In this document: positions 8,926 through 14,141 of the stretch, piece by piece
How positions within the stretch are numbered: position 1 is the stretch's first letter
Layout of the letters: every line of letters starts with the position of its first letter
From: a virus
Lineage: Duplodnaviria; Heunggongvirae; Uroviricota; Caudoviricetes
Reading direction: 5' to 3' (one strand)
IMG/VR virus record: IMGVR_UViG_2531839666_000030
Span: 1-19,672 of that record
DNA: 19,672 nucleotides
The notes under the pieces: generated by a model
The model's database searches: none
Told to the model about the DNA's origin: nothing
What the model saw: only the letters and a program-made list of their open reading frames with translations
Made by a program: the position numbers and the translations under genes

Positions 8926-9477
8926 ATGATGATTTTACAACCCATGGGGCGAAAAGGCCGTGCACCCGCTCATGTCCGTGCGTGGACACCTGAAGAAGAT
9001 GCACTGCTGATTGCGCTTTATCCATCCACCCCGGTTAAGGATATTGCTGTCAGGGTAAAAAGAAGTTTCTGGGGTGTACATAACCGGATTGTTTTATTAC
9101 GCGGTACTTACCCGGAGTTGCTCAAATGCAAACGTCCAAGATTTAAACATGATGAAGATAAATTTATCCGAAAAAATGCCAGAACGATGACCGGTAAGCA
9201 AATAGGAGAATATCTGGGGCGAGACCGGGATTCTGTCCACAAACGGGCGCGATATATTGGCGTAAGCATGAAAAAATACGGAGAGTTGCTGCCCTTCACC
9301 CGTATACCTGATGATGATGTTCATCTTATTCGTGAATTACGGGATGCTGAATCACCACGACGTCTTACCTTCCGGGAAATAGGCGAGAAATTTGAATTAT
9401 CCGAGAGTACGGTGAATTTTATTTATCACCATCGCCGGACTGCCGAGGACGCTGTATTACGGGAGTTAACGCCATGA
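8926..9477 (+). CDS. putative DNA-binding protein (Myb/SANT-like N-terminal segment, C-terminal HTH)
   Basis: 183 aa with AGGGGG Shine-Dalgarno 6-7 nt upstream. WTPEEDALLIALY...KDIAVRV...GVHNR looks Myb/SANT-like; LTFREIGEKFELSESTVNFIYHHRR resembles a sigma-70 region-4 / LuxR-type HTH. Pattern-level inference. Confidence 0.45.
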   Translation: MMILQPMGRKGRAPAHVRAWTPEEDALLIALYPSTPVKDIAVRVKRSFWGVHNRIVLLRGTYPELLKCKRPRFKHDEDKFIRKNARTMTGKQIGEYLGRDRDSVHKRARYIGVSMKKYGELLPFTRIPDDDVHLIRELRDAESPRRLTFREIGEKFELSESTVNFIYHHRRTAEDAVLRELTP

Positions 9478-9659
9478 TAAAGAGACTTGTATTTTTCGCA
9501 ATTTTCGTTCCGGTGTTGGGGGTTGGTTTTATATTTGCGATTACAGGAAACCTGTCCATGATGCCAGATATTTGGTTCTTTATCAGGATGTCGCTCTTCC
9601 TGTTTATTATGAATCTTCTTATCGACATATATATCCGTATTACTGGAAAACATAAATGA
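9474..9659 (+). CDS. small hydrophobic membrane protein (61 aa, two predicted TM helices)
   Basis: MIKRLVFFAIFVPVLGVGFIFAITG...IWFFIRMSLFLFIMNLLIDIYI contains two hydrophobic stretches. ATGA overlap with upstream stop. Gene is AT-rich. Confidence 0.5.
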   Translation: MIKRLVFFAIFVPVLGVGFIFAITGNLSMMPDIWFFIRMSLFLFIMNLLIDIYIRITGKHK

Positions 9660-10030: not shown

Positions 10031-10220
10031 TCTACCCGCTGGATGGGCGCGCCCTCTGATGGCTAAGAAGCATCATTTTTTTAAAACTGGCGATAATATC
10101 AGTATATGTAGGCGGTGGTTATATCTGGCTCATAATCGCGAGCCGGATACATTTGAAAGCCCTGATGACTGTGCCGAATGTCGCAGAAGACTGAATAAGG
10201 AGAAAGATAATGGACAGTAG
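10023..10220 (+). CDS. hypothetical small Cys-containing protein (65 aa), possible zinc-binding
   Basis: Overlaps previous gene by 8 nt. Contains ICRRW and DDCAECRRR (C...CxxC). Speculative. Confidence 0.35.
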   Translation: MNSLPAGWARPLMAKKHHFFKTGDNISICRRWLYLAHNREPDTFESPDDCAECRRRLNKEKDNGQ

Positions 10221-10506
10221 TTCGCAGTTGTTCTGGTGTTTATATATCACATCGTTTTTCGGTGCATTCGTCATTACACGATGGCTGTGCCGGAAAGTTA
10301 TCAGTATTTTTCATAAAAAATACCTGATTGGGCAGGCGGCGACTTCTCTGATTAATGCACTTGCCAGATATCATAAGGGGGAATACTACTCAAGAATAAA
10401 AACTGATGATGGTTTTAATATTTTTGTGATTCCTCCGGAGTATCGGGTTCAGCTCGATCGGGAAAGTAATATCTATCATATCAGCAGGAGTGTTGATACA
10501 GCATGA
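10210..10506 (+). CDS. hypothetical membrane-anchored protein (98 aa, N-terminal TM segment)
   Basis: N-terminal LFWCLYITSFFGAFVITRWL is hydrophobic. Overlaps neighbours at both ends. Confidence 0.45.
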   Translation: MDSSSQLFWCLYITSFFGAFVITRWLCRKVISIFHKKYLIGQAATSLINALARYHKGEYYSRIKTDDGFNIFVIPPEYRVQLDRESNIYHISRSVDTA

Positions 10507-11012
10507 GAGGGAAACTGATATCCGCTATTCATGTGGCAAAGCGCGAGCTTGCCCTGGATGATGAGACCTACACATTCGTACTACTGGCAGCCACCGGCAA
10601 AACCAGTTGCCGGGATATGTCACCCGGTGAGTTATCCCGCGTGCTGGATGTTTTCAAAAAACGCGGTTTTAAAGTGCGTCAGAAACCGGTTAACCGGGCC
10701 TTAAAACCGGGTACGGTGACCGCCAAAATTCGCGCCATCTGGAAAGTGATGCACCGGCAGGGCTTTATCTCTGATGGTGCGGAAACCGCTCTTAACCGCT
10801 GGGTGAAATCGCAGACGGCCGCGCAGAACGGCGGCGAAGGTGTGGCAAACTGGCAGTGGCTGGAGCAACACCCCGCCCTGGCCTCAGATGTGCTGGAGCG
10901 TCTCAAGCGATGGCACCGCCGCAAAATGCTGGCCGCGATGGGAATGCCCGAACGCACGCTGATGGGGTATGACGCCGTTTGCAGGCAGTATGAAAAATCA
11001 CTTCCCCGTTAA
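10503..11012 (+). CDS. gemA: GemA-like protein (Mu gp16 family, DUF1018-like)
   Basis: N-terminal KLISAIHVAKRELALDDETYTFVLLAATGKTSCRDMSPGELSRVLDVFKKRGF matches the conserved GemA/gp16 signature as recalled. Lies immediately upstream of mor as in Mu. Confidence 0.78.
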   Translation: MRGKLISAIHVAKRELALDDETYTFVLLAATGKTSCRDMSPGELSRVLDVFKKRGFKVRQKPVNRALKPGTVTAKIRAIWKVMHRQGFISDGAETALNRWVKSQTAAQNGGEGVANWQWLEQHPALASDVLERLKRWHRRKMLAAMGMPERTLMGYDAVCRQYEKSLPR

Positions 11013-11016
11013 CCCC

Positions 11017-11047
11017 AAATCCCGCCACAACGCGGGATTTTTATTTT
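11017..11047 (+). terminator. intrinsic (Rho-independent) terminator candidate between gemA and mor
   Basis: 9-bp stem AAATCCCGC (11017-11025) / GCGGGATTT (11032-11040), 6-nt loop CACAAC, followed by TTTTATTTT. Confidence 0.7.
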
Positions 11048-11081
11048 AAACTTACCGGGAACGCGAGAACCGGAGGCTGAT

Positions 11082-11507
11082 ATGGCAGAAACTCAGATGA
11101 GCATGTTTGGTGGTGACAGTGAGCAACTGCACGCCCTTATCGACCGCCTTGATGACATCCCTGATGATGTTCTCAAAAAGAACTGGCCGCGGACCCTGTC
11201 AGAACTGGTTGAAGTCACCGGCGCAGAACTTCAGCGTCAGGGGATTGAGCCGGTACTGGCCGGTAAACTGGCACGCAAGGTGGCTGCGGCTCAGGCAGCC
11301 TATATGGGCGGACGGGGTTATTACCTGCCGGTCGGGGAATCTCTCTTTGCCGAGCTGCGAAACAATGAGATATTTTCGCGCTGGGACCGGGGCGAGAAAA
11401 TTGAATCCCTTCGCCGCCATTACCGGATGTCAGAAACCCAGATTTATACCGTCATACGTGAACAGCGCCGTCTGCATCTGGCAAGAACGCAACCGCCACT
11501 TTTCTGA
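11082..11507 (+). CDS. mor: Mor/C-family transcriptional activator (middle/late gene activator)
   Basis: 141 aa. Acidic N-terminus and C-terminal GGRGYYLPVGESLFAELRNNEIFSRWDRG...SETQIYTVIREQRR parallel the Mu Mor/C fold (GGxxxYIP...HTH) as recalled. Sits between gemA and lys. Confidence 0.8.
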   Translation: MAETQMSMFGGDSEQLHALIDRLDDIPDDVLKKNWPRTLSELVEVTGAELQRQGIEPVLAGKLARKVAAAQAAYMGGRGYYLPVGESLFAELRNNEIFSRWDRGEKIESLRRHYRMSETQIYTVIREQRRLHLARTQPPLF

Positions 11508-11578
11508 TATTCCGCAAAGCCTGCCGCCTTTCCTTCACCGTTACGCTGACTCAGAGAACATCATGAGACAGCGTAACA

Positions 11579-12079
11579 ATGCCAAAACTCCCCGCACCAC
11601 TGCGTAAAAAGCTGATTGCCCTTGTTCTGGCCGGTGCCGGGACGTTCACGATTGCCACGCATTACACCGGTTACTGGGAAGGGAAAGAAAACTCCACGTA
11701 TATCGATCCCACCGGTACACCCACCATCTGTTACGGCCATACCGGCCCGGATGTGAAACCGGGTATGACCCTGACGGATGAAGAATGCCTGGAACTACTG
11801 GAAAAGGACATGAAATGGGCCTTTGCGGCCATTGATCGGCGTGTTCAGGTGCCGCTTACCCGTGGTCAGACGGTGGCGCTGGCTTCGTGGATCTTCTGGG
11901 CCGGTGAAACGAACTTCCGCAACTCCACGCTTCTGCGCCTGATCAATGCCGGGCAGATGCCCGCGTCCTGTAAGCAGTATATCCGCTGGATTTATTCAAA
12001 GGGGGTGAAACTCCCCGGCCTTGAGGCCCGCCGTTCGGCGGATGAATGGTTATGTCGCTACGACTTGCCGAAAGTCTGA
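11579..12079 (+). CDS. lys: endolysin, T4-lysozyme-like (GH24) with N-terminal SAR-type signal-anchor
   Basis: 166 aa. Gly/Ala-rich weakly hydrophobic N-terminus KKLIALVLAGAGTFTIAT, then catalytic-region motifs YWEGKENSTYIDPTGTPTICYGHTG (E...D...T triad) similar to Mu Lys as recalled. Confidence 0.88.
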   Translation: MPKLPAPLRKKLIALVLAGAGTFTIATHYTGYWEGKENSTYIDPTGTPTICYGHTGPDVKPGMTLTDEECLELLEKDMKWAFAAIDRRVQVPLTRGQTVALASWIFWAGETNFRNSTLLRLINAGQMPASCKQYIRWIYSKGVKLPGLEARRSADEWLCRYDLPKV

Positions 12080-12152
12080 ACCGCTTCTGGCGACCGCTCA
12101 TGATAGCGCTGCTGTGTGCGGTACTGCTGTTACGGGGTGTCCTGTGGCTGCG

Positions 12153-12542
12153 GTGAATAATGCCTTACCGGCCCTGATTGCCGGGGCGTGCATGGCGGCG
12201 CTGGGGATTATCGCTGTACTGGTTGCTGCGATATGGGGAATGCACCAGAAGACGCAGCGCCTTGAGGACAATAATCAGGTACTTGTACGTGAGCGGGATG
12301 AGGCGCGTCAGGTGCTGGCAAATCAGCAGCACACCCTGCAACTCATTTCACAAATCAGTGAGGCGGCCACGAATGAAAAGCAACAGAACATTCAGCACAC
12401 CGAGGAGCAACAGAGCGTTGTCCGCCGGTCGCTGGCAGCAGTGCCTGCTGCCTCTGCCCCTGTTCCTGATGATGTGGCTGATCGGGTGCGCCGGGCCGTC
12501 TGTGAAATACGTGCCTGTGAAGCCGGTGCCGATCCCCGCTGA
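12153..12542 (+). CDS. i-spanin (Rz-like inner-membrane spanin); start uncertain (GTG 12153, ATG 12192 or ATG 12042)
   Basis: N-terminal TM segment LPALIAGACMAALGIIAVLVAAIWG followed by a charged, Gln/Glu-rich predicted coiled coil. Immediately follows the endolysin and contains an embedded out-of-frame lipoprotein gene. Confidence 0.6.
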   Translation: MNNALPALIAGACMAALGIIAVLVAAIWGMHQKTQRLEDNNQVLVRERDEARQVLANQQHTLQLISQISEAATNEKQQNIQHTEEQQSVVRRSLAAVPAASAPVPDDVADRVRRAVCEIRACEAGADPR

Positions 12543-12744
12543 ATGGCTGGCTGACTGCCTGGTCCCTCCTGCGCCGGAGCCGTTCACGTTTGGGGCATCG
12601 GTCACTTACAACCTGCAACTGCTGGCGGTGATCAAGAACTGCAACGTGGACAAGGCCAGTATTCGTCGTCTGGAGGCGCGGCGACAACATGAATTTACTG
12701 ATATGGCCGGAACGCCTGCTGTTCCGGCAGGAAAGACGAAGTAA
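12373..12744 (+). CDS. o-spanin (Rz1-like outer-membrane lipoprotein), overlapping the i-spanin gene in the +1 frame
   Basis: Lipobox L-I-G-C after a hydrophobic stretch (LLPLPLFLMMWLIGC), then a proline-rich mature region CAGPSVKYVPVKPVPIPAEW...PPAPEP. Start may instead be the in-frame TTG near 12418, which is preceded by GAGGAG. Confidence 0.72.
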   Translation: MKSNRTFSTPRSNRALSAGRWQQCLLPLPLFLMMWLIGCAGPSVKYVPVKPVPIPAEWLADCLVPPAPEPFTFGASVTYNLQLLAVIKNCNVDKASIRRLEARRQHEFTDMAGTPAVPAGKTK

Positions 12745-12754
12745 GGAAAAAGGT

Positions 12755-12982
12755 ATGGATGATTCAGATCGTGCTCAGGCTGTGATGGAGCGGGGATCAG
12801 AACGCGCCCTTTGTAACCGGCTGACACGTAAGCGCCGGGCAATGGATGCTCCGGGCAGACGTGTCTGCGCGGACTGTGGCGGAGAGATCCCCGCCGCACG
12901 TCTTGTTGCTGTGCCGGATGCCATCCGTTGTGTGAACTGCCAGAACATCATGGAGGCCCGTCATGTGGGTCAGCATCGTTAA
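12755..12982 (+). CDS. TraR/DksA-family C4 zinc-finger protein
   Basis: 75 aa from ATG 12755, which has AAGGAAAAAGG upstream. C-terminal CADCGGEIPAARL...PDAIRCVNCQ is the CxxC-(17)-CxxC signature of the DksA/TraR zinc finger. Confidence 0.78.
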   Translation: MDDSDRAQAVMERGSERALCNRLTRKRRAMDAPGRRVCADCGGEIPAARLVAVPDAIRCVNCQNIMEARHVGQHR

Positions 12983-13274
12983 AGATTATGTTGTGCCGAT
13001 CCTTTCGGCGACGGCAACCGCTGGCGGGATATTCATGGCGCTGATGCGCAAAACGTTTGTCCCCCGCGAGGCCTTTGAAAAACTCTCCGACCGCGTTGAG
13101 AAGGTGGAAACCCGCCTGTCGTCACTGCCGACAGAAGCTGAGGTCAACCGTCTGAATGTGGAAATCGTGACCCTGCGGGGTGAACTGAAAACCACGAACG
13201 CCACGCTCCGCTCTGTCTCCTATCAGAACGAACTGCTGCTGGAGCAGGCTGTAAGGAAAAAAACGAATGAGTGA
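12963..13274 (+). CDS. single-pass membrane protein with coiled-coil (DUF2730-like); possible lysis-associated protein
   Basis: 103 aa. N-terminal TM VVPILSATATAGGIFMAL, then heptad-like region EKLSDRVEKVETRLSSLPTEAEVNRLNVEIVTLRGELK. GGAGG upstream of the ATG. Function inferred only from position after the lysis genes. Confidence 0.5.
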   Translation: MWVSIVKDYVVPILSATATAGGIFMALMRKTFVPREAFEKLSDRVEKVETRLSSLPTEAEVNRLNVEIVTLRGELKTTNATLRSVSYQNELLLEQAVRKKTNE

Positions 13275-13557
13275 TTTCATTACTGAAGATCAGCGTCTGG
13301 TCATTCTGCGGTCGCTGGCAGATTACAACGGTGAACTGGGTGAATCCGTGCTCCAGGACTGTCTGGATGATTACGGCCACCGCGTGTCCCGCGACACCGT
13401 TCACACCCACATTGCCTGGCTTGCCGAGCAGGGACTGGTGCGTAAGCGCACGCTCGTTAACGGTTATTTCATCGCGGAACTGACCGGCCGGGGGCAGGAT
13501 GTGGCGGAAGGCCGCGCCAGCGTTCCAGGTGTGAAGAAACCACGCGCAAGGGGGTAA
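13267..13557 (+). CDS. hypothetical protein (96 aa), position-equivalent to Mu gp26
   Basis: ORF with AAGGA Shine-Dalgarno; no recognised domain. Confidence 0.5.
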   Translation: MSDFITEDQRLVILRSLADYNGELGESVLQDCLDDYGHRVSRDTVHTHIAWLAEQGLVRKRTLVNGYFIAELTGRGQDVAEGRASVPGVKKPRARG

Positions 13558-13559
13558 CG

Positions 13560-14141
13560 ATGGACAAGCCGACGCGTGGACGCGTGCGCAAGGTGGATTT
13601 GCTCCCCGACAGCATCCGTAAGCCACTGCTGGAAATGCTGCGTGAAAAACGTCTGACGCAGGTCCAGATACGCGAGGAAATCAACCGTCTGATCCGTGAG
13701 GCGGGCCTGCCGGAAGAGCAGCAGCTTTCACCGGCGGCCATCAGCCGGGAAGCCTCCCGTAATGAGCTGATTGCCCGTAACCTGCGTGATTTACGCGAGC
13801 AGACAAAAGCCATGATGGCCGAACTGGGAGACAAGCCAACCGGTGAAACCACAGCGCTGATTCTGGAGATGTCCCGCGCCCTGATGTACCGCCGTCTGCG
13901 TGCCGCGACCGAATCCCTGAACAGTGACAGCGACGTGGATATGCGTCTTATTAAGGACATCCTCCTGTCAGCACAGCGTGCGGAAAGTGCCGCCGAGCGC
14001 AGCATTAAGCGTGAAAAAGAAATCCGGGCCGCATTTGCTGAAGAGATGGCAAACGCCGTCACCGACGAGCTGCGCGGCGTGGACGGGATGAGTGAACAGC
14101 TTGAGTCCCGTATTAAGGGGATTCTGTTGGGTAAAGCCTGA
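13560..14141 (+). CDS. Mu gp27 (D)-like protein, putative small terminase subunit
   Basis: 193 aa, highly charged and helical, directly upstream of and translationally coupled (TGATG) to the large terminase. Assigned by synteny with Mu D/gp27. Confidence 0.6.
   Translation: MDKPTRGRVRKVDLLPDSIRKPLLEMLREKRLTQVQIREEINRLIREAGLPEEQQLSPAAISREASRNELIARNLRDLREQTKAMMAELGDKPTGETTALILEMSRALMYRRLRAATESLNSDSDVDMRLIKDILLSAQRAESAAERSIKREKEIRAAFAEEMANAVTDELRGVDGMSEQLESRIKGILLGKA

What the first reader, a model, noticed from the sequence alone, without database searches (positions are those of the whole stretch)
11579..12744. Lysis cassette: SAR-type endolysin plus overlapping spanin pair, no obvious holin
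The endolysin has a Gly/Ala-rich N-terminal signal-anchor typical of SAR endolysins. The o-spanin (lipobox LIGC, proline-rich) is encoded out of frame partly inside the i-spanin gene. No classical holin ORF is apparent nearby, so lysis timing may depend on a pinholin-independent mechanism or on the downstream membrane protein.
Basis: partly seen in the sequence, partly recalled or inferred. Interest (0 to 1): 0.4.

Follow-up and report, generated by a model that had tools for sequence, protein, structure and literature searches.

The report
Mu-type holin-less phage lysis cassette
This is the cell-bursting gene set of a Mu-like prophage of E. coli: a membrane-tethered lysozyme, a two-part outer-membrane disruptor and, just downstream, a homologue of the Mu "releasin", so the missing holin is the known Mu arrangement; the one new item is a conserved, unannotated 36-codon membrane-peptide gene inside the cassette.

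Summary
Window 11579-12744 encodes a GH24 lysozyme with a weakly hydrophobic N-terminal anchor. It also encodes an overlapping i-spanin/o-spanin pair with lipobox LIGC. No holin-family protein is encoded anywhere in the window.

The window is a Mu-like prophage inserted in E. coli kefC. It is about 99% identical to prophages in 231 of 5,426 complete E. coli genomes.

Each cassette gene is a syntenic homologue of phage Mu gp22, gp23, gp23.1, gp24, gp25 and gp26. The "downstream membrane protein" at 12963-13274 is a full-length DUF2730 protein, 34% identical to Mu gp25. Chamblee et al. 2022 (PMC9239132) showed that Mu has no holin and that gp25, the "releasin", frees the SAR endolysin gp22 from the membrane. 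This is a new member of a known kind.

A 36-codon ORF (12046-12156) bridges the lysozyme stop and the i-spanin start. It encodes a small hydrophobic peptide and shows protein-level conservation across a clade in which the lysozyme falls to 55% identity. Its function is unknown.

Function throughout is inferred from homology, not tested.

The parts
11082..11507 (+). Mor/C-family transcription activator (141 aa). It is the only one between gemA and lys and is the presumed activator of the lysis/late promoter.
   Evidence: Pfam Mor PF08765, 111 bits. 40% identical to Mu C, E 8e-33. It occupies the same position as Mu C, directly upstream of lys.
11512..11547 (+). Late-promoter-like element: a conserved box CCGCAAAGCC (11512-11521) and a -10-like TACGCT (11542-11547). 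Inferred, not tested.
   Evidence: The box and the TAnnCT hexamer align with the region upstream of lys in clade relatives and in Mu. No sigma-70 consensus promoter occurs in 10900-13700, as expected for an activator-dependent promoter.
11579..12079 (+). Endolysin (166 aa): GH24 muramidase with an N-terminal SAR-type signal anchor.
   Evidence: PF00959, 127 bits. E34-x8-D43-x5-T49. 39% identical to Mu gp22 over the whole length, including the N-terminus.
11612..11659 (+). SAR domain coding segment: residues L12-T27, LIALVLAGAGTFTIAT, preceded by K3, R9, K10 and K11.
   Evidence: 9 of 16 residues are G/A/S/T, and the KD19 maximum is 1.39. The motif (I/L)P..L(K/R)..L(I/L)A...AG(A/G)G is shared with the gp22-type endolysins next to DUF2730 genes.
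12046..12156 (+). Conserved, unannotated small ORF (36 codons; 34 from the second ATG at 12052): MVMSLRLAESLNRFWRPLMIALLCAVLLLRGVLWLR. It has a basic N-terminal part and one hydrophobic stretch. It overlaps the lys 3' end and the i-spanin start. Function unknown.
   Evidence: Open and of constant length in all 19 distinct variants of the clade. In the spacer outside lys and the i-spanin, pN/pS is 0.53 in this frame against 1.85 in the i-spanin frame. A randomised-substitution test gives P 0.0005-0.006 in this frame against 0.5-0.8 in the other. KD19 is 2.31. There is no CDS here in RefSeq. The exact sequences are absent from the 15-billion-protein collection. One 34-aa clade relative has been called as a gene.
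12144..12542 (+). i-spanin (132 aa from GTG 12144): an N-terminal TMD followed by a helical periplasmic domain.
   Evidence: phrog_214 Rz-like spanin, E 1.2e-32. 27% identical to Mu gp23. TMD KD19 is 2.64. The GTG aligns with the ATG start in Citrobacter and in L034, and GGGGT lies 6 nt upstream. The frame upstream of 12144 shows no protein-level conservation.
12373..12744 (+). o-spanin (123-aa precursor from ATG 12373; alternative start TTG 12418). Lipobox LIGC with the lipidated Cys at codon 12487-12489. Overlapped architecture.
   Evidence: PF23793 LysC, 59.9 bits, with the model starting at the lipobox. phrog_3001, E 7.8e-42. 40-49% identical to Mu gp23.1. Ala at +2 and 13% Pro. The ATG and the 39-residue signal length are conserved in Citrobacter.
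12755..12982 (+). TraR/DksA-type C4 zinc-finger protein (75 aa) in the position of Mu gp24. No lysis role is known.
   Evidence: PF01258, 45 bits. TIGR02419, 77.8 bits. Synteny with Mu gene 24.
12963..13274 (+). DUF2730 protein (103 aa), homologue of the Mu gp25 releasin. It has an N-terminal TMD (YVVPILSATATAGGIFMALM), an R-K junction and a helical cytoplasmic domain.
   Evidence: PF10805, 71.4 bits over the full model length. 34% identical to Mu gp25, E 2e-17. P12, A20-G21-G22 and M28-R29 are invariant with Mu. It is annotated 'releasin' in Mu record AF083977.

Best explanation
This is the late lysis cassette of a Mu-like transposable prophage. It most likely works as in phage Mu, without a holin.

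1. The Mor/C-family activator turns on a promoter just upstream of lys.
2. The lysozyme is exported by Sec but stays tethered to the inner membrane, inactive. It is held by its weakly hydrophobic N-terminal SAR domain and the flanking basic residues K3, R9, K10 and K11.
3. The DUF2730 protein is a bitopic N-out/C-in membrane protein made from the same transcript. [quoted passage not shown]
4. The released enzyme refolds and degrades the peptidoglycan.
5. The i-spanin/o-spanin complex then disrupts the outer membrane.

Sequence features, gene order and homology are shown here. Every functional step is inferred from the Mu experiments.
For: **Context.** The window is Mu-like. It has GemA, Mor, Gp27 and DUF2730 families and a Mu-type transposase and Gam. 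The prophage end abuts a disrupted kefC.

**Gene-for-gene synteny with Mu 22-23-23.1-24-25-26-27**:
- lys is 39% identical to gp22.
- The i-spanin is 27% identical to gp23.
- The o-spanin is 40-49% identical to gp23.1.
- A zinc-finger gene sits in the gp24 slot.
- The DUF2730 protein is 34% identical to gp25.
- The gp26-like protein is 63% identical to gp26.

**SAR domain.** The N-terminus aligns with the gp22 SAR domain and shares a motif with all gp22-type endolysins found next to DUF2730 genes.

**Mu experiments** (PMC9239132). gp22 is a SAR endolysin. Mu has no holin. gp25 is required for release of gp22 and also helps to release unrelated SAR endolysins.

**No holin here.**
- No holin family is present in the window.
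- None is annotated in the complete prophage of a 99%-identical relative.
- The two other small membrane proteins of the window (9474-9659 and 10210-10506) lie in the early region. Among the relatives compared they have a homologue only in L014, the closest one.

**Conservation.** The order lys, small ORF, spanins, Zn finger, DUF2730, gp26 is conserved in Citrobacter and in IMG/VR relatives down to 55% lysozyme identity.
Against: - No experiment exists for this prophage.
- The residues that make Mu gp22 depend on gp25 (K6, K7) align with A6 and P7 here. The basic cluster here is R9-K10-K11, and R9 aligns with Mu K9, which was irrelevant in Mu. Releasin dependence is therefore not assured.
- The SAR segment here has 2 Gly, against the six-Gly run of gp22 that the authors suspected might matter.
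- A signal-peptidase site (TIA|T) cannot be excluded.
- The cassette contains an extra conserved membrane-peptide ORF that Mu lacks. The mechanism may therefore have an additional component.
- DUF2730 proteins also occur with non-SAR endolysins, so their general role is unsettled.
Confidence: 0.72

Rival explanations
1. The lysozyme does not need the DUF2730 protein. Either its N-terminus is an ordinary cleavable Sec signal peptide, or it is a SAR domain that leaves the membrane spontaneously. Lysis timing is then set only by late transcription and enzyme accumulation. The DUF2730 protein would do something else.
For: - Possible cleavage sites follow the hydrophobic core (T24-I25-A26|T27).
- The Mu determinants K6/K7 are not conserved in position.
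- There is no poly-Gly run as in gp22.
- DUF2730 genes are also paired with cytoplasmic endolysins.
- Classical SAR endolysins release spontaneously at some rate.
Against: - The N-terminus is homologous to the gp22 SAR domain, which carries a similar TIA|G motif yet stays membrane-tethered.
- Four basic residues flank the anchor. Added N-terminal basic residues lock SAR domains in the bilayer.
- The DUF2730 gene is strictly co-conserved with this lysozyme type, two to four genes downstream.
- A freely secreted lysozyme would leave lysis without any timing control.
Confidence: 0.13
2. The cassette does have a holin-like component. The conserved 36-codon membrane peptide (12046-12156) would act as a very small pore-former or depolariser, or as an antiholin-like regulator, that triggers or tunes SAR release. 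It might act alongside the DUF2730 protein.
For: - The ORF shows protein-level conservation, lies within the late cassette and has one hydrophobic stretch.
- It is more conserved (61%) than the neighbouring i-spanin (38-46%) between the window and L004 or L034.
- It occupies the slot between endolysin and i-spanin. In P2, lysA sits in that slot (from memory, not tested).
- Peptides of this size, the type I toxins, can depolarise the E. coli inner membrane (general knowledge).
Against: - It matches no holin family. The best match is phrog_3427 at E 0.2, for one variant only.
- At 36 residues with one short hydrophobic stretch interrupted by Arg, it is smaller than any characterised holin that I know of.
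- It is absent from Mu and from the nearest outgroups that have DUF2730, so it is not part of the core mechanism.
- Its ribosome-binding site is weak.
- Translation is unproven.
Confidence: 0.1
3. The cassette is an inactive remnant in a defective prophage and no longer causes lysis.
For: Many E. coli prophages are defective. One IMG/VR relative carries a lys-i-spanin fusion ORF (P0049; L005).
Against: - All cassette ORFs in the window are intact.
- They are under purifying selection across Escherichia, Shigella and Citrobacter.
- The related prophage in a complete genome has a full Mu-like gene set.
- The Mu-like prophage Sp18 of O157 Sakai was judged intact (PMC2669165). Identity of the window to Sp18 was not tested directly.
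Confidence: 0.04

Closest known systems
Phage Mu lysis cassette: gp22 (SAR endolysin), gp23/gp23.1 (spanins), gp24, gp25 (releasin, DUF2730). Chamblee et al. 2022, mBio (PMC9239132).
   Same: Same gene order downstream of a Mor/C-family activator. All five proteins are homologous (27-49% identity). [quoted passage not shown]
   Different: - Sequences are highly diverged.
- The basic residues lie at 9-11 (plus K3) rather than at 6, 7 and 9.
- The SAR segment has 2 Gly instead of the six-Gly run.
- The i-spanin starts 65 nt after the lys stop instead of overlapping it.
- An extra conserved 36-codon ORF fills that gap.
- There is no equivalent of the Mu middle-operon membrane genes 19 and 20.
- There is only one Mor/C-type gene.
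Pinholin plus SAR endolysin systems (phage 21 S21/R21, P1 Lyz).
   Same: A GH24 lysozyme with the E-x8-D/C-x5-T motif and an N-terminal Gly/Ala-rich signal-anchor-release domain, followed by Rz/Rz1-type spanins.
   Different: Those phages encode a pinholin or holin upstream of the endolysin that sets timing by depolarisation. No such gene or family is present here, and a DUF2730 gene is present instead.
P2-type lysis genes K-lysA-lysB-lysC and lambda Rz/Rz1 spanins.
   Same: The o-spanin matches the Pfam LysC (Rz1-like) family. The genes are in the overlapped arrangement, as for P2 lysB/lysC (from memory). The small ORF occupies the slot between endolysin and i-spanin where P2 has lysA (from memory).
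   Different: P2 has a holin (Y) and a soluble endolysin. lysA is a much larger multi-TMD protein. Lambda Rz1 is fully embedded in Rz, whereas here the o-spanin extends 202 nt beyond the i-spanin.

Membership tests
SAR endolysin (Mu gp22 / R21 / P1 Lyz type) | Muralytic catalytic domain (GH24 lysozyme with E-x8-D/C-x5-T) | tested here: met
   PF00959, 127 bits. E34, D43 and T49.
SAR endolysin (Mu gp22 / R21 / P1 Lyz type) | N-terminal uncharged, weakly hydrophobic segment rich in Gly/Ala/Ser/Thr, preceded by basic residues | tested here: met
   LIALVLAGAGTFTIAT has 9 of 16 G/A/S/T. KD19 is 1.39, against 2.64 for the i-spanin TMD. K3, R9, K10 and K11 lie upstream.
SAR endolysin (Mu gp22 / R21 / P1 Lyz type) | N-terminus homologous to an experimentally proven SAR domain | tested here: met
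   It aligns with gp22 residues 1-21, with P5, L8, L12, A14, A18, G19 and G21 invariant. The motif is shared across DUF2730-linked endolysins.
SAR endolysin (Mu gp22 / R21 / P1 Lyz type) | Not cleaved by signal peptidase; a membrane-tethered inactive form is released by depolarisation, pinholin or releasin | not testable with these tools
   This needs fractionation, Western blots and lysis assays. No SignalP or TMHMM was available. A possible TIA|T site exists here, and a similar one exists in gp22.
Releasin (Mu gp25, DUF2730 type I) | Full-length match to DUF2730 (PF10805) and significant similarity to gp25 itself | tested here: met
   71.4 bits against a cutoff of 24.9, covering model positions 3-101 of 102. 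34% identity to gp25, E 2e-17.
Releasin (Mu gp25, DUF2730 type I) | N-terminal TMD with N-out/C-in topology and an R-R or R-K motif at the membrane-cytoplasm junction | tested here: met
   The hydrophobic stretch is residues 10-28 (KD19 1.80), followed by R29-K30. The N-terminal tail is only 9 residues. Topology rests on the positive-inside rule only.
Releasin (Mu gp25, DUF2730 type I) | Gene within five genes downstream of the endolysin in the late operon of a transposable phage | tested here: met
   It is the fourth annotated gene after lys (fifth counting the small ORF). The genome has GemA, Mor and a Mu transposase.
Releasin (Mu gp25, DUF2730 type I) | Cognate endolysin carries the charge arrangement that confers releasin dependence (Mu K6, K7) | tested here: inconclusive
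   The aligned positions are A6 and P7. The basic residues are K3, R9, K10 and K11. In Mu the arrangement mattered, not the total charge.
Releasin (Mu gp25, DUF2730 type I) | Required for, or accelerates, release of the SAR endolysin | not testable with these tools
   This needs a knockout or co-expression lysis assays.
Two-component spanin, overlapped architecture | i-spanin: N-terminal TMD plus periplasmic helical domain, with a family match | tested here: met
   phrog_214, E 1.2e-32. KD19 is 2.64. 27% identical to Mu gp23.
Two-component spanin, overlapped architecture | o-spanin: lipoprotein signal with lipobox Cys, no Asp at +2, short Pro-rich mature part | tested here: met
   LIGC with Cys39. 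Ala at +2. 85-residue mature part with 11 Pro. PF23793, 59.9 bits.
Two-component spanin, overlapped architecture | o-spanin gene starts inside the i-spanin gene in another frame and ends beyond it | tested here: met
   12373-12744 against 12144-12542: a 170-nt overlap and a 202-nt extension.
Holin / pinholin | Match to any described holin family | tested here: not met
   No significant holin hit for any ORF tested in Pfam, PHROGs or NCBIfam. The best was phrog_3427 at E 0.2, for one small-ORF variant.
Holin / pinholin | Small membrane protein with one or more TMDs encoded in the late lysis cassette | tested here: inconclusive
   The only unassigned candidate is the 36-codon ORF 12046-12156. 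It has one hydrophobic stretch of about 18 residues containing an Arg.
Holin / pinholin | Lethal hole formation that can be triggered prematurely by energy poisons | not testable with these tools
   This needs DNP or CCCP triggering assays.

The most novel reading that the evidence does not exclude
The conserved, unannotated 36-codon ORF between the endolysin and the i-spanin (12046-12156) encodes a bitopic inner-membrane peptide that is a working part of lysis control in this holin-less Mu-like lineage. It could be a minimal depolariser or holin-like trigger, or a modulator of SAR-domain or spanin TMD behaviour. It possibly arose from a duplicated i-spanin N-terminus.
Probability: 0.25. Interest if true: 0.5.

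Novelty: new member of a known kind. Interest (0 to 1): 0.25.

Why it matters
On its own the cassette only extends the Mu releasin paradigm to a common E. coli, Shigella and Citrobacter prophage lineage, found in 231 of 5,426 complete E. coli genomes.

It is still useful as a natural variant for dissecting releasin function. Here a gp25 homologue is paired with a SAR endolysin that lacks both features suspected to cause releasin dependence in Mu, namely basic residues at positions 6 and 7 and the poly-Gly run. Testing this pair would show what really determines dependence.

The small conserved membrane-peptide ORF is a cheap, testable candidate for an additional lysis factor. RefSeq annotation lacks it.

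The work also corrects two RefSeq start calls. The lysC start is placed after the lipobox, and the i-spanin start is placed too far upstream.

Tried and rejected
1. **Search for a holin.**
   - A hydropathy scan of all ORFs and family scans gave no holin family.
   - The 61-aa two-TMD protein (9474-9659) has a class-II-holin-like topology. It lies in the early region, upstream of a terminator-like hairpin, and only the closest relative compared (L014) has a homologue. I rejected it as the lineage's holin.
   - The 98-aa protein at 10210-10506 fails for the same reasons.
2. **RefSeq i-spanin start at GTG 12114**. Rejected. The frame upstream of 12144 shows no protein-level conservation, and L034 has a stop further upstream in that frame.
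3. **Fusion of the small ORF to the i-spanin by a -1 frameshift.** Rejected. There is no slippery heptamer, and a two-TMD product would put the spanin domain in the cytoplasm.
4. **Small ORF as a duplicated i-spanin N-terminus.** Its similarity to Mu-type gp23 N-termini is weak (z 2-3.9) and it shows none to other outgroups. Inconclusive.
5. **Searches that gave little.**
   - The genome-contig scan with the DUF2730 protein returned one locus.
   - The search for homologous proteins with the i-spanin returned only relatives of 80% identity or more.
   - phmmer of the small ORF against 1.84 billion representatives gave one genuine 34-aa clade member and two spurious repeat proteins.
6. **Alternative o-spanin start at TTG 12418.** It has a good GAGGAG 9 nt upstream. 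I kept it as an alternative only, because ATG 12373 and the 39-residue signal length are conserved in Citrobacter.
7. **Structure prediction** was not run. It would not discriminate a SAR domain from a signal peptide.
Full report
**What is in the interval**

- The 166-aa product of 11579-12079 is a phage lysozyme.
  - It matches Pfam PF00959 (127 bits, cutoff 22.3) and PHROG endolysin phrog_7 (E 7.6e-51).
  - It carries the catalytic motif E34-x8-D43-x5-T49.
  - Its first 11 residues, MPKLPAPLRKK, carry four basic side chains.
  - They are followed by LIALVLAGAGTFTIAT, in which 9 of 16 residues are Gly, Ala, Ser or Thr.
  - The best 19-residue Kyte-Doolittle mean is 1.39. It did not pass a 1.5 threshold that ordinary TMDs in the window pass easily.
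- The next gene is an Rz-like i-spanin.
  - It matches phrog_214 (E 1.2e-32).
  - Its TMD has a KD19 of 2.64.
- The ORF from ATG 12373 to 12744 lies in another frame and is an Rz1/LysC-type o-spanin.
  - It matches PF23793 (59.9 bits, cutoff 27), and the model match begins at the lipobox.
  - It also matches phrog_3001 (E 7.8e-42).
  - It has a lipobox L-I-G-C with Ala at +2.
  - The 85-residue mature part is 13% Pro.
  - It overlaps the i-spanin by 170 nt and runs 202 nt beyond it.

**Genomic context**

The window is a Mu-like transposable prophage.

- Bases 1-992 are E. coli kefF/kefC, present in 5,423 of 5,426 complete genomes. No complete genome has this junction. The prophage has therefore transposed into kefC, with its left end at about 993.
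- The prophage carries the following, in Mu order:
  - a Mu-type transposase and AAA ATPase;
  - Kil, Gam and GemA;
  - one Mor/C-family activator;
  - Gp27, large terminase, portal and head genes.
- The 2.6 kb around the cassette is at least 95% identical in most of the 231 matching E. coli genomes, out of 5,426 complete genomes. These include O157:H7 strains.
- It is also 99% identical to 'inserted Mu-like phage' regions in two Stx-phage records.
- The literature calls the O157 Sakai Mu-like prophage Sp18 and judges it intact (PMC2669165). I did not test identity to Sakai directly.

**Comparison with Mu**

I fetched the Mu record and compared proteins. Each gene has its Mu counterpart in the same order.

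| Window gene | Mu counterpart | Identity / evidence |
|---|---|---|
| lys | gp22 | 39%, E 7e-33, aligned from residue 1 |
| i-spanin | gp23 | 27% |
| o-spanin | gp23.1 | 40-49% |
| TraR/DksA Zn-finger protein | gp24 slot | PF01258, TIGR02419 |
| 103-aa protein, 12963-13274 | gp25 | 34%, E 2e-17 |
| next gene, 13267-13557 | gp26 | 63% |
| following gene, 13560-14141 | Gp27 | Pfam Phage_Mu_Gp27, 116.6 bits |

The 12963-13274 protein matches DUF2730 (PF10805) over the whole model, at 71.4 bits against a cutoff of 24.9. Its TMD is followed by R29-K30, the junction motif noted for gp25.

**What is known about Mu**

Chamblee et al. 2022 (PMC9239132) showed the following.

- gp22 is a SAR endolysin, releasable by the phage 21 pinholin.
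- gp23 and gp23.1 are the spanins.
[quoted passage not shown] DNP does not trigger lysis but delays it.
- gp25, the prototype of DUF2730, is required for timely release of gp22. The authors named it a 'releasin'.
- Dependence on gp25 is conferred by basic residues at positions 6 and 7 of gp22.
- gp25 also promotes release of unrelated SAR endolysins.

The current Mu GenBank record annotates gene 25 as 'releasin'.

**Is the N-terminus really a SAR domain?**

No signal-peptide predictor was available, so this rests on homology and composition.

- Across 65 IMG/VR loci found through their DUF2730 gene, the adjacent gp22-type lysozymes share an N-terminal pattern. The pattern is (I/L)-P-x-x-L-(K/R)-x-x-L-(I/L)-A-x-x-x-A-G-(A/G)-G.
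- The window protein fits this pattern and aligns with gp22 from residue 1.
- A possible signal-peptidase site (T-I-A|T) follows the core. gp22 has T-I-A|G and nevertheless accumulates as a tethered form. The motif therefore does not discriminate.
- Two differences from Mu matter.
  - The positions aligned with K6 and K7 are A6 and P7. The basic cluster here is R9-K10-K11 plus K3.
  - The segment has two Gly rather than the six-Gly run.
- Whether release here depends on the DUF2730 protein is therefore likely but not assured. This is the main rival reading.

**Is there a holin anywhere?**

- A hydropathy scan of all ORFs leaves two real genes with TMDs outside the cassette. One is a 61-aa two-TMD protein (9474-9659). 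The other is a 98-aa protein with an N-terminal TMD (10210-10506).
  - Both hit only PHROGs of unknown function.
  - Both lie in the early region, upstream of a strong terminator-like hairpin at 11017-11040.
  - Among the relatives compared, only L014, the closest one, has homologues of them. Those relatives keep the whole lysis cassette.
  - They are not the lineage's holin.
- The other early proteins have no holin match.
- The complete prophage of a 99%-identical relative has no annotated holin.

**A conserved small ORF that had been overlooked**

While fixing the i-spanin start I compared the lys/i-spanin junction in diverged relatives. The relatives were Citrobacter braakii L004 and several IMG/VR loci, including L034.

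- A third-frame ORF, 12046-12156, starts inside the last codons of lys and stops 10 nt after the i-spanin start. Its product is MVMSLRLAESLNRFWRPLMIALLCAVLLLRGVLWLR.
- It is open and exactly 36 codons long in all 19 distinct variants of the clade.
- Seventeen codons lie outside both neighbours (window 12082-12132).
  - There, pN/pS is 0.53 in this frame and 1.85 in the i-spanin frame.
  - I placed the observed number of substitutions at random. Amino-acid similarity as high as observed arose with P 0.0005-0.006 for the window against L004, L027 and L034.
  - In the i-spanin frame the same test gave P 0.5-0.8.
- Between the window and L034 the lysozyme is 55% identical, the i-spanin 38% and the small ORF 61%.
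- The peptide has a basic N-terminal half and one hydrophobic stretch (KD19 2.31).
- It has no significant Pfam, PHROG or NCBIfam match.
- The window's sequence and three clade variants are absent as exact sequences from the 15-billion-protein collection. RefSeq has no CDS there.
- A full phmmer scan of 1.84 billion representatives found one genuine relative. It is a 34-aa call from the same clade, starting at the second ATG.
- The ORF is absent from Mu, from Mu-type loci and from the nearest DUF2730-bearing outgroups (L087, L088, L092). In those, the i-spanin start overlaps the lys stop.
- Its C-terminal 'RGVLWLR' weakly resembles the end of the Mu-type gp23 TMD ('SGVLWHR'). A shuffle test is only marginal, so origin by duplication of the i-spanin 5' end is an open idea.
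- I estimate about two chances in three that it is translated. Its function is unknown.

**Gene starts**

- The i-spanin start that fits the comparative data is GTG 12144.
  - It aligns with the ATG in Citrobacter and in L034.
  - GGGGT lies 6 nt upstream.
- RefSeq places the i-spanin start at 12114. It names the protein 'endopeptidase', an old misnomer for Rz.
- RefSeq places the lysC start at GTG 12502, downstream of the lipobox Cys. That would remove the lipoprotein signal.
- ATG 12373 is used by other gene callers and is conserved in Citrobacter, with the same 39-residue signal length.

**Promoter**

- No sigma-70 consensus promoter occurs in 10900-13700.
- A box (CCGCAAAGCC, 11512-11521) and a TAnnCT hexamer (11542-11547) align with the region upstream of lys in relatives and in Mu.
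- This fits an activator-dependent late promoter in front of lys.
- This step is inferred, not tested.

**Verdict**

The finding is real and its interpretation is sound. It describes a diverged member of the already published Mu-type holin-less lysis system. Interest is low to moderate. The added value is the conserved small membrane-peptide ORF and a natural SAR/releasin pair that lacks the features thought to cause releasin dependence in Mu.

Noticed in passing
window 1-1000: Bases 1-992 are E. coli kefF/kefC (99-100% identical, present in 5,423 of 5,426 genomes). The match stops at 992, so the Mu-like prophage is inserted in kefC and truncates it. None of the complete genomes has this junction, as expected for near-random Mu-type transposition.
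   Followed up: partly
window 18711-18790, minus strand: A tRNA-like element lies antisense in the gap between the head-morphogenesis (F-like) and virion-morphogenesis (G-like) genes. It matches Rfam tRNA RF00005 at 31 bits (gathering score 29) when the region is searched alone, with an over-long anticodon-arm region. ARAGORN and the whole-window gathering scan miss it. RefSeq calls it 'tRNA-OTHER' in a relative.
   Followed up: partly
window 11017-11507: A strong terminator-like hairpin (9-bp stem, T run) follows gemA directly. Only one Mor/C-family gene (11082-11507) lies between gemA and lys. Mu has separate Mor and C genes and a middle operon (genes 18-20) here. The transcription cascade of this lineage may therefore have two stages rather than three.
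   Followed up: no
window 9474-9659 and 10210-10506: Two small early-region membrane proteins: one of 61 aa with two TMDs and a basic C-terminus (holin-like topology), and one of 98 aa with an N-terminal TMD. Both fall in PHROGs of unknown function. Among the clade relatives compared, only the closest (L014) has homologues, so they are accessory early genes.
   Followed up: partly
window 12114 and 12502 (RefSeq starts seen in L001): In a 99%-identical genome, RefSeq starts lysC at the GTG after the lipobox Cys, which removes the lipoprotein signal. It starts the i-spanin ('endopeptidase') 30 nt upstream of the start that comparative data support.
   Followed up: yes
L003 2000-6100 (NZ_CP075632.1, outside the window): In this relative the same Mu-like prophage sits inside a lambdoid prophage. 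Near its right end, between the invertase and com/mom, it carries a block also typical of Stx-phage late regions: a 685-aa DUF6645 protein, a 59-aa single-TMD DUF1378 protein and a DUF826 protein.
   Followed up: no
L131, L139, L140, L146 (IMG/VR): Unrelated phages with SAR-type lysozymes and no detected DUF2730 gene downstream of lys carry a 52-55-aa single-TMD ORF between the lysozyme and the i-spanin. A small membrane peptide in this slot may therefore recur independently.
   Followed up: no
L005 / L081 and protein P0049: One IMG/VR relative has lost the lys stop. This gives a 216-aa lysozyme-i-spanin fusion ORF (PF00959 plus PF10828). It is either a sequencing error or a defective copy.
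   Followed up: no
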